Assembly: GCA_951406725.2 (NCBI GenBank)
Contig: OX597829.1
Location: 17,856,001-17,920,000, forward strand
Origin: Octopus vulgaris
Taxonomy: Eukaryota
Direction: 5' to 3'
Length of the DNA stretch: 64,000 nt
Positions 1,756-52,280 of this stretch are shown here, one piece after another. How positions within the stretch are numbered: position 1 is the first letter of the stretch; each line of letters begins with the position of its first letter. The notes under the pieces were generated by a model. The model had not been told where the DNA came from. It saw only the letters and a list, made by a program, of their open reading frames with translations, and ran no database searches. The position numbers and the translations under genes were made by a program.

Positions 1756-2795
1756 TTCTCAACATCCCTGTTAACTTCCACCACTCTAACTACATCCATT
1801 TTGTTAAAAACTGACCGATTCTCACTCACGACTATTTTGACTTGCCCTCCTTCTAACTCACTCTGGCCAAACACTCCATTCCCTTCTCTTAATTTCTCCG
1901 ACCATCTCCTCCGAAGCCGCCAAACATGATTTTCAGACACGGTCTCAATACATAATTAAACACTTTAGTTTAAGTGGCTGCATTTCATCAACAAGCACCA
2001 TGCAGGCACTGCACCTTCGTCTCCCACCTCTATGTCCACACCACTGAAAACTGCCTTCTTTTCACTCTCAACGACTAACTTCCCGACTATTTCTGCAGTA
2101 CACTGTTTTATACATATTCCAAACTCATCGATCCTATGCTATCAATTCCTACATCTTCGTCTATCCACCTCTCTCCTCTTTTAAATATCTTTAATCAACG
2201 AGATTTACTCTTGTTCATTCCTTTCCCTAAACCTGCACCCAGCCTGGATCGATTCCTTTCTTGATGTTATCCGGGTAAATTTACGTCATGAAAATAGAAA
2301 CAAAGAAAATACTTTGTGAAATTCGCATAAGAAAATAGAAAGCGTTTACATTTTTATCTAAATAGGCTACCGGTTTCAATCATTTTAAAAAGGCTATTTA
2401 GTCATTATAAATAAAGGGAAAATAAATTGAGAAAATTGAAATTAAGTTAATGAATTCTACATGTTTCTCTTAAGTACAAATGATACTGATGTTGCCAAAC
2501 AACAATGAAAAGGAAACCTTGTACCATGTAACTCTTTTAGAGAAAACATGTGAACATTTAATTTAAACTATTTCAATTTATCTTCTCTTTTATTTCAGTA
2601 TGACAGCATAAAATATGTAACACTTTCTTACCGTTTTCCATGACAATATTCTCAGAGTATTTAGAGCATTTTCTTCTTTTAATTTTATTCTCAATACACA
2701 TACACATATGCACACACACACAGAGTTTACTGTGTCGTTAAAGAAAGAGTTAACAAAAAGAAAGTACTCTATCCAGTGTGAGATAAGTATCATTT

Positions 2796-3001
2796 AGTAT
2801 ACACAATTTAAGAAAAGCTACTAACAGTTTCATGCTGAAAGGATACAGTTTGATTGAATCAAACTAAGATGAATCGGCTCTGAATTGAAGAAGTAAAATT
2901 ACTTGATCACTCCATTCTTTTAATTTATCTTTATATCTGCCAAATTATTGTATCTCTACAGCATGAAACTATTAGCAGCCCGTTTTTAAATTGTGTCCAC
3001 T
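2796..3001. mobile_element. Putative MITE with ~55-bp imperfect terminal inverted repeats
   Basis: AGTATACACAATTTAAGAAAAGCTACTAACAGTTTCATGCTG at left is the reverse complement of CAGCATGAAACTATTAGCAGCCCGTTTTTAAATTGTGTCCACT at right, with mismatches. Confidence 0.6.
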
Positions 3002-3194
3002 CTATCAATATGCCTGACCATTCCTTCCTCAAGCCTCCTCTCTAAACTTTTTCCTCTTCTAACGAATAGCCATGATCGAAGCGTCATTTCCACGTTTTTT
3101 TTTTTCTTGCATCTAAACCACTCACTTAGCGTCAATCTAATATATTCACTGTGTACGTCTAATTGGCTTTTGATCCTTTTACGTCTTTTTTATG

Positions 3195-3241
<47 letters not shown>

Positions 3242-3688
3242 TAATATATATATATGTATATGTGTGTATTTGCGTGTGTATGTAGGTATATAGGTATGTA
3301 TATATAAATATATGAATATATATAAACATACATATATAAAGGCTCCATATTGTATGACAAACATTCAAAATGGCTGTTTTTCTCTTCCTCACAAATCAAA
3401 ATATTAAAATATTTTGTATTTCACTCCTAATTGCTGAATAACATACAATTGCGAAAACACAATTGGCACTGTATAAAAAAAATTGAAAACTTTATATTTC
3501 AGTTAATTAAATGTGAATAAAATAAATTAATATTTTTGTTATCATAACTAAACGAAGCGTTAAAATGACAGGAGGCCAGCAGTGGTGGTGAAACGAAATT
3601 AAAATTTTTGTATTCGTAACTATCTTACTGCTTGATTTGAACAGCTCATACTATATAAAACCTCATTTGTAGTGATAGCTTGAATATT

Positions 3689-3855
3689 GGTTTCAAATTT
3701 TGACAGGAGGCCAGCAGTTTCAAGGAAGGGAGTAAGGCTAATATTTCGACCCCATTGCTCAACTGGTACTTATTTTATCAAACTCAAAAGGATGAAAGGC
3801 AAAGTCGAACTCGTAACGAAAAGACGGACTAAATGCTGCTAAGCTTACCGCCTTC
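3689..3855 (-). mobile_element. Old, diverged SINE B-type copy with the alternative tail
   Basis: AAAGGATGAAAGGCAAAGTCGA core plus GGTTTCAAATTTTG tail as at 12100-12184 and 50457-50670. Confidence 0.7.
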
Positions 3856-4077
3856 GTGATAGGCTGAATATTGAAAACTAATTTTATCCGTGGATTTTTA
3901 TTAATTTACGAAAGCTAGCCTGCTACGTCTTATAGGACACTCTAATGTTTAGTATTTAGGGCAGGCTTTTTCATACAGTCGTAGGATCAGTCGAATTTCA
4001 CTTAACGCTGATATGATCATTAATACGAAGCAAATGCAGATGAAGTCTTATATTATACTAACGCACGGTCGGATAGA

Positions 4078-4093
4078 CGACGACGACGACCGC

Positions 4094-4125
<32 letters not shown>

Positions 4126-4188
4126 GGGTGGTGGTTGTGGTCATGGTGATGATGATGATGATGATGATGGTTGCGGTCATGGTGGTGT

Positions 4189-4229
<41 letters not shown>

Positions 4230-4412
4230 GTGATAATGAAGATCATGATCATGATCATGATGATAATGATGTTGATGATAGTGGTGATGGTGGTGGTGGT
4301 GACGGTGATGATGATGAGGAGGAGGATAATGATGATGATGATGGTGGTGGTGGTGGTGGTGGTGATGGTGGTGATGGTGATGATGATGATGGTGATGATG
4401 ATGAGGATGATG

Positions 4413-4469
<57 letters not shown>

Positions 4470-4530
4470 GTGGTGATGGTGGTGGTGGTGGTGGTGGTGG
4501 TGATGGTGATGATGATGATGATGATGATAA
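4078..4530. repeat. Compound (GAT)n/(GGT)n trinucleotide microsatellite
   Basis: Direct reading; produces the spurious poly-D/G, poly-M/V and poly-I/T ORFs. Confidence 0.95.
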
Positions 4531-5996
4531 CGACAACGACAACGATGATTATAACGAGAGAGTGACGACGTTGAGGGGGTAGAGGATGAGAGAGGAGGGA
4601 GGAGAGACTAGCTACGACGACGATGGCGACGAGTATGATCATCACGATGACGTTGGCGACGACCCGGGAGGACAACAACGAGGACGAGATGGGGGCCCTA
4701 CGAGGCCCTACGAGGAAGAGGAGGAGAAGGAGGCAGAGGAGAAGGCGAATTAAGGCGATGCAGGTCGAAGCGGAGAAGGAAGCGAAAGAAGAGGTGGAGT
4801 AGGAGGAGGAGGAGGAGGAGAAAGATTTATTTAAATGCAGCATTGTTGTGTTTAATTAAGATGATGGCGTTATATTTTATTACCGCTGTTGTTGTTGTTG
4901 TTGTTGTTTCACTTGTCAAAGCGTTTCCTTTTTTTATTTTCCCTTTCTTTATTGCTTTGTTGTTGCTGTTGTTGTTGTAGTTGCTTTTGTTAGATTTGTT
5001 GCTTCGGCGTGTGAGTGTATGTGCGTTAGTGTGTATGTGCATATGTGTGTGTGTGAGCATGTGTGCGTGTGTGTGTGTGTGTACGTGCGTGTATGTGTGT
5101 GTGTATGTGTGTGTATATGTGCGTGGATGTATGTGTGTGCGTGGATGTATGCGTGTGCGCGCACGCGCGTGTACGTGCGTGTGTATGTGTGTGTGTGCGC
5201 GCAAGCGCGTGTATGTGTGTGTGTGTATATGTTTGCATGTGAATGTGTGTGCGTGTATGTGTATGTGTATGTATGGGTCTGCGTGTGGTGTGTTTGCGTA
5301 TGTATGTGCATGCATGTGAGTGTGCATGTGTGCGTCTGTGTGGGCACGTGAATGTGTGCGTGTTTGTGTGTGTATGTGTGTGTGTGCACGTATGTTTGTG
5401 TGTGCGTATGTGTGTGTGTATGTTTTCTGTTCACTTTTTTTTTTCTTTTACTCGTTTGATACAAAACATAGATGTTTATCTTAAATTCCTCCATTTTCTA
5501 CGTCACCAAGTCTGTCACAATCATTAATCAAAATGAAGGTTTCATTTTTTGCCCCCCTTCATTTATATATTCTTTTCGTCTCCCCTTCTTTATTCTGCAA
5601 TATATATATTTGATGATGATGATGATGATGATAGCTGTAGTGGTACTGGTGGTGGTACTGGTGGTGGTACTAGTGGTGGTGGTGGTGGTGGTGGTGGTGG
5701 TGGTGGTAGCGGTGATGGTGATGGTGGTGGTTATGGTGGTTGTTGTGGTGGTGGTGCTACTGCTGCTGCTGCTGATGATGATGATGCTGTTGTGCTGGTG
5801 TTGTTTTTGTTATTGGTGGTTGTGGTGGTGGTCACGATGGTGACAATGATGATGATGATGATGATGATGATTAAAATATAAGGAACCACAATCTCTGCCA
5901 CCCAAATGCAATTTATTGCTGCAAAATTTCAATAAAATGTTGCTTTTCCATTAAAATTTAATAACTTCTGATTTTTCTTTCTTTTTCATAGACATC

Positions 5997-6057
<61 letters not shown>

Positions 6058-8756: not shown

Positions 8757-8800
8757 TTTCAGTACCGGTTTCGGTCATTTTGAGACCTTTTCAACTGTAA
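8757..8800 (-). ncRNA. Minimal type-I hammerhead ribozyme, U3-A8 core variant
   Basis: Minus strand: UUACAG-UUGAAAA-GGUC UCAAAAU GACC-GAAA-CCG-GUA-CUGAAA; palindromic stem III ACCGGU; element ends in (TA)n at ~8706. Confidence 0.7.
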
Positions 8801-10699: not shown

Positions 10700-11281
10700 C
10701 TTTTCTACTCTAGATACAAGGCCCGAAGTTTTGGGGGAGGGGGCAGTCGATTAGATCGACTCCAGTACGCAACTGGTATTTAATTTATCGAACCCGAAAT
10801 GATGAAAGGCAAAGTCGACCTCGGCGGAATTTGAAATCAAAACGTAAAAACGGAAGAAATACCTATTTCTTTACTACCCACAAGGGGCTACACACAGATA
10901 AGACAAACAAGAACAGACAAACAGATTAAGCCGATTATATCGACCCCAGTGCTTAACAGGTACTTACTTTATCGACCCCGAAAGGATGAAAGGCAAAGTC
11001 GACCTCGACGGAATTTGAACTCAGAACGTAGCGACAGACGAAATACCTATTTCTTTACTACCCACAAGGGGCTACACACAGAGAGAACAAACAAGGACAG
11101 ACAAACAGATTAAGTCGATTATATCGACCCCAGTGTGTAACTGGTACTTATTCAATCGACCCAGAAAAGATGAAAGACAAAGTCGACCTTGGCGGAATTT
11201 GAACTCAGAACGCAGCGGCAGACGAAACACCGCTGAGCATTTCGCCCGGCGTGCTAACGTTTCTGGCCAGCTCGCCGCCTT
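10700..11281 (-). mobile_element. SINE family B tandem array (three bodies, ~184-bp period, last unit with older tail)
   Basis: GAAATACCTATTTCTTTACTACCCACAAGGGGCT junction occurs at ~10856 and ~11041; one head at 11281. Confidence 0.9.
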
Positions 11282-17170: not shown

Positions 17171-18035
17171 AGGCTTTGAGCTGGCAGAAACGTTAGCGCG
17201 CCGGGCGAAATGCTTAGCGGTATTTCGTCTGTCGTTACGTTGTGAATTCAAATTCCACCGAGGTCGACTTTGCCTTTCATCCTTTCGGGGTCGATAAATT
17301 AAGTACCAGTTAAGCATGGGGTCGATGTAATTGACTTAATTCGTTTGTCTGTCCTTGTTTGTCCCCCCTATGTTTAGCCACTTGTGGCCAATTAAGAAAT
17401 AAGAATCGTTAGCACGCCGGGCAAAATTCGTAGCCGTATTTCGTCTGCCGTTACGTTCTGAGTTCAAATTCCGCCGAGGTTGACTTTGCCTTTCATCCTT
17501 TCGGGGTCGATAAATTAAGTACCAGTTACGCATGGGGTCGATGTAATCGACTTAATCCGTTTGTCTGTCCTTGTTTGTCCCCTCTATGTTTAGCCACTTG
17601 TGGCCAATTAAGAAATAAGAATCGTTAGCACGCCGGGCAAAATTCGTAGCCGTATTTCGTCTGCCGTTACGTTCTGAGTTCAAATTCCGCCGAGGTTGAC
17701 TTTGCCTTTCATCCTTTCGGGGTCGATAAATAAAGTACCAGTTATGCATGGGGTCGATATAATCGACTCAATCCGTTTGTCTGTCCTTATTTGTCCCCTC
17801 TATGTTTAGCCCCTTGTGGGTAGTAAAGAATTTAGAATCGTTAGCACGCCGAGCAGAATGTTTTGCTGCATTTCGTCCGTCACTACGTTCTGGGTTCAAA
17901 TTCCCCCGAACTCGACTTTGCCTTTTATCTTTTAGGGATCGATAAAAATAAATATCAAAGAATTGGCTTCCATCTAATGGACAAGAACCCTCCATCCCCA
18001 CTTATCCCCCTAATTGAGGCCTTTCGCCTACAGAA
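17171..18035 (+). mobile_element. SINE family B tandem array (216-bp period, three young units plus one diverged terminal unit)
   Basis: Homologous ORFs begin at 17336, 17552 and 17768; tail-to-AATCGTTAGCACG junctions at ~17400, ~17616 and ~17832. Confidence 0.9.
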
Positions 18036-29005: not shown

Positions 29006-29201
29006 CTTATACATGTAATTTGGACAAATTGCTATATGTCATTTAGTGTGTTCACGTGCTGAGTAAAGCACTAACACAGTGTCGGCTACCTAGTGTCATC
29101 TACAGCTGAGCTGTACTTCCGCTTCTTTCACATGTTCGATGAAAATTAACAACGTTTCTTCTTTCTATAGTTTTGTATTTTGTATGTGTAAGTACATCTC
29201 C

Positions 29202-29250
<49 letters not shown>

Positions 29251-29375
29251 AGATGTACTTGCATAGCGAGTGACTTGATCTGAGATCGCGTGCTGGAACG
29301 AAAACAATTGCAGCGTGGAGGGTGTTTATAAGAAACACACAAAACCGTTAGATTCACTTCAACATTTAAATTTAA

Positions 29376-29426
29376 TTTGTCAAAATATTTTCGTCGCTTT
29401 GAGACCGCGACCTGTTCACTGACAAA
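29376..29426 (-). ncRNA. Minimal type-I hammerhead fold, G3-C8 core variant
   Basis: Minus: UUUGUCA-GUGAACA-G-GUCGC GGUCUCAAA GCGAC-GAAA-AUA-UUU-UGACAAA; perfect 7-bp stem I, 5-bp stem II, palindromic AAUAUU stem III; host element ends in (TA)n at ~29248. Confidence 0.7.
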
Positions 29427-29465
29427 ACTTCGTGCTACATCTGAGAAAGTAACAGTTAGTTCATG

Positions 29466-29497
<32 letters not shown>

Positions 29498-29798
29498 GTA
29501 TGTAAGTGTGTGTGTGTGTATATGTATGTATGTGTGTATGTGTGTGTGTATGTATGTATGTATGTATGTATGTATGTATGTGTGTGTGTATGTATGTATG
29601 TATGTATGTACTTACGTATGTATGTGAGTATTTAGGAGAGTGTGTAGACGTGTCTATGTGTGTGTACATGTGTATGTACATGTGAACGTATGTTTGTGTA
29701 ATGATATGTGTCAGTTCAAGTTGTATACATGACTGTTACCTTGTTGAATGTTGTATATATACACACATATACATTTATGCAGACACACACACACACAC

Positions 29799-29837
<39 letters not shown>

Positions 29838-30007
29838 ACTCTCACCATCTCACCACCGTCTAACGGTGAATGGATACAACGTCTTAGATACATATATGCA
29901 CATATAACCTTATATATATATATATACAAGTACACACAATCATATAGACACTTACACATACACACATAGACGCGCATCCATCTCTATATACATAAATACA
30001 TATACAC

Positions 30008-30068
<61 letters not shown>

Positions 30069-30083
30069 CACAAATACATATAC

Positions 30084-30143
<60 letters not shown>

Positions 30144-30462
30144 ACTCTTTTCAAGGACAACGGTTAAAATTCAAACTTTATTTTATTCTATTTATCCTTT
30201 TTTTATTTTTTTATTTTTACATGCGTACATATATAATACATATATATATTTACACCTACTCATATGTGCGTGCATATGTATATATATATAAGTTCAGCAA
30301 AATTTAGATTCAAATGAATATGGTACTTATGTTAGATGCACCAGAATTTTGTATGGTGTTATCCATAAAAATCCATGGGGTGATTATAATCAAATTAAGC
30401 AACAGGAATAACTTCGGTAATTTGGTACGATATTACCGAAGTTATTCTTGTTGCTTATTTTG

Positions 30463-30509
<47 letters not shown>

Positions 30510-30537
30510 TCAAAATAAGCAACAAGAATGACTCCGG

Positions 30538-30630
30538 TAATTTGGTACGATCGTTTCGTACTACATCATTTTATTAAATGTTGTAAGTATTACAACAGAT
30601 TTAAGATGCTGAGTACTCATCAGCCAATTA
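30538..30630 (-). ncRNA. Type-I hammerhead ribozyme with canonical core and long stem II
   Basis: Minus: UAAUUGG-CUGAUGA-GUACU...AGUAC-GAAA-CGAUC-GUA-CCAAAUUA; all core nucleotides present; palindromic ACGAUCGU stem III. Confidence 0.85.
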
Positions 30631-30770
30631 TAGAGGTTTTCCATTAATACAAAAGTTTTTAAATCAAGTGGTAACATTATAGAGAAGGTAGATATACAGA
30701 CAAAGATGTAGATTTAAATTTTAAGAACATATGAGGTAGTGAAGTCTTTCCGCTGACTGGAAAACCTCTA

Positions 30771-30863
30771 TAATTGGCTGATGAGTACTCAGCATCTTAA
30801 ATCCGTTGTAATACTTACAACATCTAATAAAATGATGTAGTACGAAACGATCGAACCAAATTA
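30771..30863 (+). ncRNA. Inverted sister hammerhead with triplet changed from GUA to GAA
   Basis: UAAUUGG-CUGAUGA-GUACU...AGUAC-GAAA-CGAUC-GAA-CCAAAUUA. Confidence 0.7.
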
Positions 30864-31079
30864 CCGGAGTCATTCTTGTTGTGATCACCCCACAAATTTT
30901 TATGGATAACACCATACAAAATTCTGGTGCATCTAAATCAAGTACCATATTCATTCGAATCAATATAGCCAGCTGGAGGCGAAGTTTCCTGGGACTAGAT
31001 AACTAACTTTCGTACCAACCGGAACTGCCACATTATGTTGGCAAATAATCTTTAATACATATATATATATAAATATATA

Positions 31080-51815: not shown

Positions 51816-52280
51816 AGGCGGCGACCTGACAGAATCGTTAGCACGCCGTGCGAAATGCTTAGCGGTATTTCGTCTACCGTTACGTTCTGAGTTCAAATTC
51901 CGCCGAGGTCGACTTTGCCTTTCATCCTTTCGGGGTCGATTAAATAAGTACCAGTTACGCACTGGCGTCGATATAATCGACTTAATCCGTCTGTCTGTCC
52001 TTGTTTGTCCTCTCTGTGTTTAGCCCCTTGTGGTTAATAAAGAAATAGGTATTTTGTCTGCCGTTACGTTCTGAGTTCAAATTCCGCTGAGGTCGACTTT
52101 GCCTGTCATCCTTTCGGAGTCGATAAATTAAGTACCAATTACGAAGTGGGGTCGATGTAATCGACTTAAACCATTTGCCTGTCCTTGATTGTCCCCCTCT
52201 AAGTTTTTATCCCCTTGTGGGCAATAAAGAAATAAGAATCGTTAGCACGCCGGATAAAATTCTTAGCGCCATTTTGTCCG
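51816..52280 (+). mobile_element. SINE family B tandem (two bodies plus remnant)
   Basis: Junctions GAAATA|GGTATTTTG (~52048) and GAAATA|AGAATCGTTAG (~52234). Confidence 0.9.

What the first reader, a model, noticed from the sequence alone, without database searches (positions are those of the whole stretch)
29248..29465. Rare G3-C8 hammerhead with an extra nucleotide after A9 and a UUU cleavage triplet
The minus strand folds as 7-bp stem I (UUUGUCA/UGACAAA), core GUGAACA, extra G, 5-bp stem II (GUCGC/GCGAC), GAAA and palindromic AAUAUU. G3-C8 is the inverted form of the canonical pair, so three of four possible Watson-Crick states at 3-8 occur within 64 kb. The element ends in (TA)n, and the far side of that tract carries an inverted copy of its last ~15 nt (AAGTACATCTCCATA at 29190-29204), suggesting tail-to-tail insertion or fold-back priming.
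Basis: partly seen in the sequence, partly recalled or inferred. Interest (0 to 1): 0.75.

Follow-up and report, generated by a model that had tools for sequence, protein, structure and literature searches.

The report
Swapped-core hammerhead in Penelope-like retrotransposon
This stretch is the end of one copy of a Penelope-type jumping gene, whose thousands of copies in this genome carry a hammerhead (self-cutting RNA) motif with two paired core letters swapped; it likely still cuts weakly, as a pair of copies, but cutting is untested, and its other odd features are ordinary for such elements.

Summary
The fold is real. It is the pseudo-LTR and tail of a 5'-truncated Penelope-like retrotransposon (RT, CxxxCxxC linker, C-terminal GIY-YIG; Neptune/Nematis type). 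Over 4,000 exact hammerhead matches exist genome-wide. G3-C8 is the family state: 94 and 98 of the first 100 matches in two subfamily groups. No common variant falls in core or stems (0 of 42 positions, against 13 of 96 outside). The sister family (54% identity) has C3-G8, and 8 of 20 distant relatives show C3-G8 or U3-A8, so the swap looks derived. The extra nucleotide, palindromic helix III and U17/UUU are already published for these ribozymes. The inverted 15-nt tail is real but rare (9 loci found). It is best read as a second tiny insertion at the same TA tract, not plain DNA fold-back. Against activity: a G3·G8 lineage still jumped, and 5' ends at the predicted cut are only modestly enriched. 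I found no natural G3-C8 in the papers searched, but two key papers were not held. This scan already noted swapped-core hammerheads on other DNA of this genome and in others. Verdict: new variant of a known kind.

The parts
29249..30290 (-). 5'-truncated copy of a Neptune/Nematis-type Penelope-like retrotransposon: microsatellite-rich 3' UTR, pseudo-LTR and tail, no coding part upstream
   Evidence: About 80% identity over about 1,100 bp to L022 and L027, and in two pieces to L031; L031 continues upstream into a GIY-YIG frame
29466..30290 (-). Microsatellite-rich 3' UTR belonging to the element, not flanking host DNA
   Evidence: Non-repetitive islands shared with up to 12 of the other 29 loci
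29376..29426 (-). Minimal type I hammerhead motif with G3-C8, extra G after A9, 5-bp stem II, palindromic AAUAUU helix III, U17
   Evidence: family conservation
29414..29419 (-). Swapped core pair: G3 (29419) and C8 (29414)
   Evidence: G3 in 192 of 200 and C8 in 180 of 209 aligned distinct pieces
29382..29383 (-). Predicted cleavage site, after UUU
   Evidence: Inferred from hammerhead numbering; modest excess of genomic 5' junctions here
29249..29332 (-). First ~28 codons of the element ORF; this copy has a 9-bp deletion that removes the ATG
   Evidence: In tandem junctions L109, L110, L121, L337 the ATG lies 56 nt after the cut and reads into the ORF; deletion seen in alignment
29249..29305 (-). 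'Tail', about 60 nt between the two places where copies end, the likely two internal RT start sites (+32 and +92 of the ORF)
   Evidence: 3' ends of 331 pieces form two peaks, 110 and 166 pieces; model from PMC11167929
29205..29248 (.). (TA)22 target tract
29190..29206 (+). Inverted 13-17 nt copy of the element 3' terminus, likely a second very short insertion
   Evidence: it keeps the family terminus form (CpG-decayed) that the near arm lacks

Best explanation
The stretch is the pseudo-LTR and tail of a 5'-truncated Penelope-like retrotransposon copy, and its hammerhead motif, with a family-wide G3-C8 swap, likely cuts the element's tandem RNA slowly and only when two copies pair. Shown: host element, tandem pLTR-ORF layout, family-wide G3-C8, conservation of core and stems across subfamilies, two preferred 3' ends. 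Inferred: a tandem locus is transcribed; two AAUAUU palindromes pair to form helix III, probably helped by the element's protein; cleavage after UUU frees an RNA starting 56 nt before the ATG; the RT-endonuclease nicks AT-rich DNA such as (TA)n and starts reverse transcription at +32 or +92 of the ORF. Cutting is probably not required for each jump. The inverted 15-nt tail is inferred to be a second, extremely short insertion primed from the other strand of the same TA tract, in the same event or a later one.
For: Element: GIY-YIG Pfam hits above cut-off; 839-aa frame in which I read RT motifs and a CxxxCxxC linker by eye; junction copies; 5' inversions and short target duplications. Family state: 2,147 and 1,956 exact pattern matches; G3-C8 in 94 and 98 of the first 100 listed; no C3-G8 among 100 of 111 G8 matches listed; no alternative letter at 4% or more at positions 3 or 8 in contigs of four runs from four other organism labels. 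Constraint: variants of 10% or more at 0 of 42 core and stem positions against 13 of 96 in loop II and non-coding flanks, Fisher p = 0.007. Covariation at the same place in relatives: sister family C3-G8; 8 of 20 metagenome 3' flanks have a motif with a Watson-Crick 3-8 pair (5 C-G, 3 U-A), none in 50 shuffles each. The double swap restores activity in lab mutants (PMC11167929; PMC9901934). Junctions at the cut: about 43 against 31 and 29 at two control positions.
Against: No cleavage assay and no RNA-level data. A G3·G8 form (111 matches, at least 3 haplotype backgrounds, 7 of the 30 best copies with different flanks) retrotransposed anyway. No compensatory stem change within the family, and the variable loop positions are linked, so p = 0.007 overstates independence; the sample of pieces is also not random. 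The excess at the cut is only 1.4-fold (rough one-sided p = 0.046; p = 0.003 only after a post-hoc filter), 5 of 23 junctions there can be explained by stem I microhomology, and among 160 pieces not picked by junction pattern only 1 starts at the cut. G3 is predicted to wobble-pair with U17 (P = 0.68), a likely inhibitory fold, and the helix III duplex alone is only -0.2 kcal/mol. In Anolis the hammerhead was dispensable for insertion in vitro. Pfam found no RT family on the three long frames.
Confidence: 0.66

Rival explanations
1. Same element, but the motif is a catalytically dead or near-dead hammerhead relic, kept as a protein-binding or folding signal or simply inherited.
For: G3·G8 lineage jumped; predicted G3·U17 trap; hammerhead dispensable in vitro and no reads at the cut in Anolis; the sister family has C at position 9 yet has 1,311-aa open frames.
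Against: A Watson-Crick 3-8 pair is kept in all 8 relatives with such a motif plus sister and this family (one further candidate had A·G); the youngest subfamily is 98 of 100 G3-C8; the G-C swap was the one rescuing double change in a full pairwise screen.
Confidence: 0.27
2. For the inverted tail only: DNA-level fold-back at the palindromic (TA)n during replication or repair copied the last 15 nt to the far side, with no retrotransposition.
For: The tract and arms form a near-perfect hairpin (z -9). In 4 of 9 tail-to-tail loci the arms are nearly identical and share uncommon variants (L044, L046, L222, L224). Both window arms carry the CpG-decayed A seen in 24 of 152 ends.
Against: 54 of 56 TA tracts in the window have no inverted arms and the two that do sit at element ends. 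Arms differ in 3 of 9 loci, and L041 joins two subfamilies. The far arm keeps a terminal letter that the near arm lacks.
Confidence: 0.25
3. The 218 bp is a stand-alone small element (SINE or retrozyme) or a chance fold.
For: Many copies are short; one tandem array of short units exists (L123).
Against: The same sequence sits directly 3' and 5' of an RT/GIY-YIG ORF; the reversed control pattern gives 0 matches.
Confidence: 0.04

Closest known systems
Minimal type I hammerheads of metazoan Penelope-like elements (Cervera and de la Pena 2014, PMC4209133; read: parts 1-2 of 4, supplement file 2 parts 1-2 of 3; file 1 not searchable)
   Same: Located in the pLTR; extra nucleotide between 9 and 10.1; G10.1-C11.1; palindromic helix III; U17 in 24 of 56 rows of Fig. 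S3 by my hand count; a UUU triplet in the Crassostrea gigas row; dimer model with low activity.
   Different: None of the 56 rows has G3-C8 (only C or U at position 3; their search pattern was biased to these). Stem I here is 7 bp.
Anolis Poseidon element PAc (Frangieh et al. 2024, PMC11167929; read: parts 1-2 of 4)
   Same: Hammerhead next to the ORF start; two internal RT start sites define the tail; AT-rich targets; both strands nicked and extended; engineered C3G/G8C partly rescues cleavage.
   Different: There G3-C8 is a lab mutant, here it is the natural state. Tail about 60 nt rather than 30-40. Linker zinc finger present, so Neptune/Nematis rather than Poseidon.
Neptune/Nematis clades of EN+ PLEs (Craig et al. 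2021, PMC8557442; read: passages and section 20)
   Same: RT, CX2-5CxxC linker, C-terminal GIY-YIG; 5' truncation, inverted 5' copies, tail. The paper reports (TA)n targeting for Naiad and Hydra elements and links it to the linker motif.
   Different: Clade not fixed by a tree with named references.
Natural U3-A8 hammerheads (Perreault et al. 2011, PMC3088659; read: passages)
   Same: Natural covariation of the 3-8 pair.
   Different: The passages read report U3-A8, a transition swap; G3-C8 needs two transversions.

Membership tests
EN+ Penelope-like element | One ORF with RT and C-terminal GIY-YIG | tested here: met
   GIY-YIG Pfam hits; RT motifs read by eye, motif names recalled; homologs named RT-domain proteins; Pfam gave no RT hit
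EN+ Penelope-like element | Tandem or partial-tandem pLTRs flanking the ORF | tested here: met
   L109, L110, L116, L121, L122, L337
EN+ Penelope-like element | Inverted 5'-truncated copies and a tail on one arm | tested here: met
Neptune/Nematis clade | CX2-5CxxC linker before the endonuclease | tested here: met
   CQSNCAVC in P0001; definition
Neptune/Nematis clade | Grouping with named Neptune or Nematis references in an RT tree | not tested
   No named references were in hand; tree has unnamed relatives only
Minimal type I hammerhead (PLE) | U4 G5 A6, A9, G12 A13 A14, A15.1-U16.1, H17, stems I and II | tested here: met
Minimal type I hammerhead (PLE) | C3-G8 (or U3-A8) identity | tested here: not met
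   G3-C8 throughout; the Watson-Crick pairing itself is kept
Minimal type I hammerhead (PLE) | Palindromic helix III allowing a dimer | tested here: met
   AAUAUU; monomer helix III costs 5.4 kcal/mol against the open form
Minimal type I hammerhead (PLE) | Site-specific self-cleavage | not testable with these tools
   Only an indirect genomic test, weak
Non-LTR retrozyme | Head-to-tail tandem units, each with a hammerhead | tested here: not met
   The window copy is single; an array exists elsewhere (L123)

The most novel reading that the evidence does not exclude
A natural, working G3-C8 hammerhead fixed in a recently active retrotransposon family, with its cut recorded in the genome as copies that start at the cleavage site, and with tail-to-tail copies made when one dimeric RT-endonuclease primes outward from both strands of a (TA)n tract that fails to melt.
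Probability: 0.3. Interest if true: 0.65.

Novelty: new variant of a known kind. Interest (0 to 1): 0.44.

Why it matters
G3-C8 is known as a laboratory rescue mutant. Here it is the wild type of thousands of copies, beside a sister family with C3-G8 and a G3·G8 offshoot. That gives a natural series for testing how much the Penelope-type hammerhead matters for mobility, an open question since the motif was dispensable in vitro. It also means searches that require CUGANGA or UUGANAA miss whole families. The tail-to-tail copies offer a small test of how these elements use both strands of a TA tract.

Tried and rejected
Rfam: only microsatellite-driven miRNA hits and no hammerhead. PDB sequence search with the ORF: 0 hits. 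Pfam RT: none on three long frames. Idea that 5' ends pile up sharply at the cut: raw counts were 56 at the cut against 85 and 43 at controls. After classing the first 30 loci of each and dropping internal indels (7, 19 and 10), scaled counts were 43, 31 and 29, so only a weak hint. Idea that inverted tails are a family hallmark: rejected, 1 of 30. The raw tail-to-tail counts (6 and 5 loci) are close to the reversed-pattern controls (2 and 4); 2 of the 11 were unrelated chance hits and were dropped, and the other 9 were kept because they span a TA tract and have family arms. Idea that the extra G and UUU are unusual: rejected from PMC4209133 and from relatives. Whether G3·G8 is the evolutionary intermediate or a later loss: not resolved. 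Expression: no RNA holder listed, and raw RNA reads were not examined, so expression and RNA ends remain open. Literature: eight searches found no report of a natural G3-C8 hammerhead. Lunse et al. 2017 and Przybilski and Hammann 2007 were not held; I saw only their reference entries, and the former could contain such variants. Supplements other than file 2 of PMC4209133 were not read.

Full report
Observation. Stems I and II form the minimum-energy fold (z -2.4). Rfam does not detect it. The window also holds a C3-G8 hammerhead pair and a weaker U3-A8 candidate. The inverted terminus across the (TA)22 tract is there, 13 letters exact.

What the element is. A genome search gave 3,311 candidates, and the 30 best were 91-100% identical. 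Their upstream microsatellites contain shared islands, and the window copy extends to about 30290. Longer copies run into a GIY-YIG frame. A young subfamily has open frames up to 1,025 residues stop-to-stop. In an 839-residue frame I read RT motifs, a CxxxCxxC linker and the endonuclease (motif names recalled, linker definition from PMC8557442). Copies L109, L110, L121 and L337 show the same sequence directly 5' of the ORF, with the ATG 56 nt after the predicted cut. So the 218 bp is a pseudo-LTR plus the ORF start. The 3' ends of 331 pieces fall in two peaks about 60 nt apart (110 and 166 pieces). This matches the two internal RT start sites that make the tail in the Anolis element (PMC11167929). 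Head-to-head inverted copies with short target duplications are common. The best-named homolog is an Octopus protein, so the host is probably a cephalopod; that is an inference.

The swapped pair. Patterns with N at positions 3, 7 and 8 gave 2,147 matches for older loop types and 1,956 for the young one, with 0 for reversed controls. G3-C8 made up 94 and 98 of the first 100 listed, all on contig C1. A G8 pattern gave 111 matches; of the 100 listed, 99 were G3·G8, 1 A3·G8 and none C3-G8, and 42 lay on C16. In 310 distinct pieces, common variants hit 0 of 42 core and stem positions but 13 of 96 positions in loop II and non-coding flanks (p = 0.007, inflated by linkage). There is no compensatory stem change inside the family. 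Contigs from four runs of four other organism labels show no alternative letter at 4% or more at positions 3 or 8. The sister family in this genome (54% identity; 100/99 support) has C3-G8, the extra G and U17. Of 20 metagenome relatives with a 3' flank, 8 show a minimal hammerhead with a Watson-Crick 3-8 pair (5 C-G, 3 U-A), all with the extra G; 1 has an A·G candidate, 11 show none, and shuffles gave none. G3-C8 is therefore most simply derived in this family.

What is ordinary. Cervera and de la Pena list the nucleotide between 9 and 10.1 and the palindromic helix III as conserved features, and report U3-A8. In their Fig. S3, 24 of 56 rows have U17 by my count, one has a UUU triplet, and none has G3. 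The double swap partly rescues the Anolis ribozyme and was the one rescuing double change in the core in a pairwise screen (PMC9901934, passages).

Does it cut? Not shown. The monomer cannot close helix III well (5.4 kcal/mol penalty), the intermolecular AAUAUU duplex is weak, and G3 is predicted to wobble with U17 (P = 0.68), much like the C3-G17 trap discussed in PMC3884650 (passages). I looked for copies starting exactly at the cut. After classing 30 loci per pattern, scaled counts were 43 at the cut and 31 and 29 at two downstream controls (p = 0.046; 34, 20 and 14 after a post-hoc microhomology filter). Some cases are suggestive, such as repeated restarts at the cut in L145/L146, but only 1 of 160 pieces not picked this way starts there. 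The G3·G8 lineage made many separate insertions, so an intact pair in the copied pLTR is not needed to jump.

The inverted tail. It occurs in 1 of the 30 best loci, the window's own. Two pattern searches found 9 true tail-to-tail loci across TA tracts, against roughly 0.2 to 3.7 expected from independent insertions under a uniform model with an assumed 2,000-6,000 ends. In 4 the arms are nearly identical and share uncommon variants, in 3 they differ, in 1 they match over 35 letters of a common type, and the window's arm is too short to tell. Only 2 of 56 TA tracts in the window have inverted arms, both at element ends. I infer element-driven priming from the opposite strand. Nicks on both strands give the usual head-to-head copy with a duplicated target if the DNA between them separates, and a tail-to-tail pair if a long TA duplex stays paired. 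This model is mine and untested; DNA fold-back remains possible for near-identical arms.

Comparison and verdict. The element meets the tested features of an EN+ Penelope-like element of Neptune/Nematis type. The RNA works like a minimal dimer-type hammerhead but fails the C3-G8/U3-A8 identity, and cleavage could not be tested. Eight paper searches found no natural G3-C8 report, with two key papers not held. Other papers seen: PMC6765202, PMC6155905, PMC3088659 and PMC10085705 as passages, bioRxiv 10.64898/2026.07.22.740005 as part 1 of 5. Earlier notes of this scan describe swapped-core hammerheads on other DNA of this genome and in other genomes; they are not independent support. New variant of a known kind, interest 0.44.

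Noticed in passing
window 30290-30960: A second hammerhead-bearing repeat family with C3-G8 and a long stem II, head-to-head (30623 -, 30778 +), and also tail-to-tail across the TA tract 30465-30508, where the arms differ at 3 of 33 letters by my reading.
   Followed up: partly
window about 8760-8797, minus strand: U3-A8 minimal hammerhead candidate with palindromic helix III and short stem I; a similar motif appears in L248.
   Followed up: partly
L335-L338 (G000 C5, C17, C19): Sister family with 1,311-aa open frames and tandem copies; its hammerhead has C3-G8 but C at position 9. Metagenome locus L258 also reads with C9.
   Followed up: partly
G000:C16:0.6-10.7 Mb: 36 of the 100 listed G3·G8 matches cluster here, and 7 such copies examined have different flanks, suggesting local hopping from one source.
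   Followed up: partly
L123 (G000:C28:4994870-4997945): Tandem array of short pLTR units ending at the first RT start site, retrozyme-like.
   Followed up: no
L145/L146 (G000:C7:24901931-24901999): Both arms of an inverted insertion start at the predicted cut, with short repeats of the first 11-12 letters between them.
   Followed up: partly
L032-L034: Composite elements in which an inverted hammerhead pair is embedded in other repeated sequence and copied as a unit.
   Followed up: no
window 10748-11231, 17186-17946, 51864-52234: Tandem repeats of 184-216 bp with related sequence.
   Followed up: no
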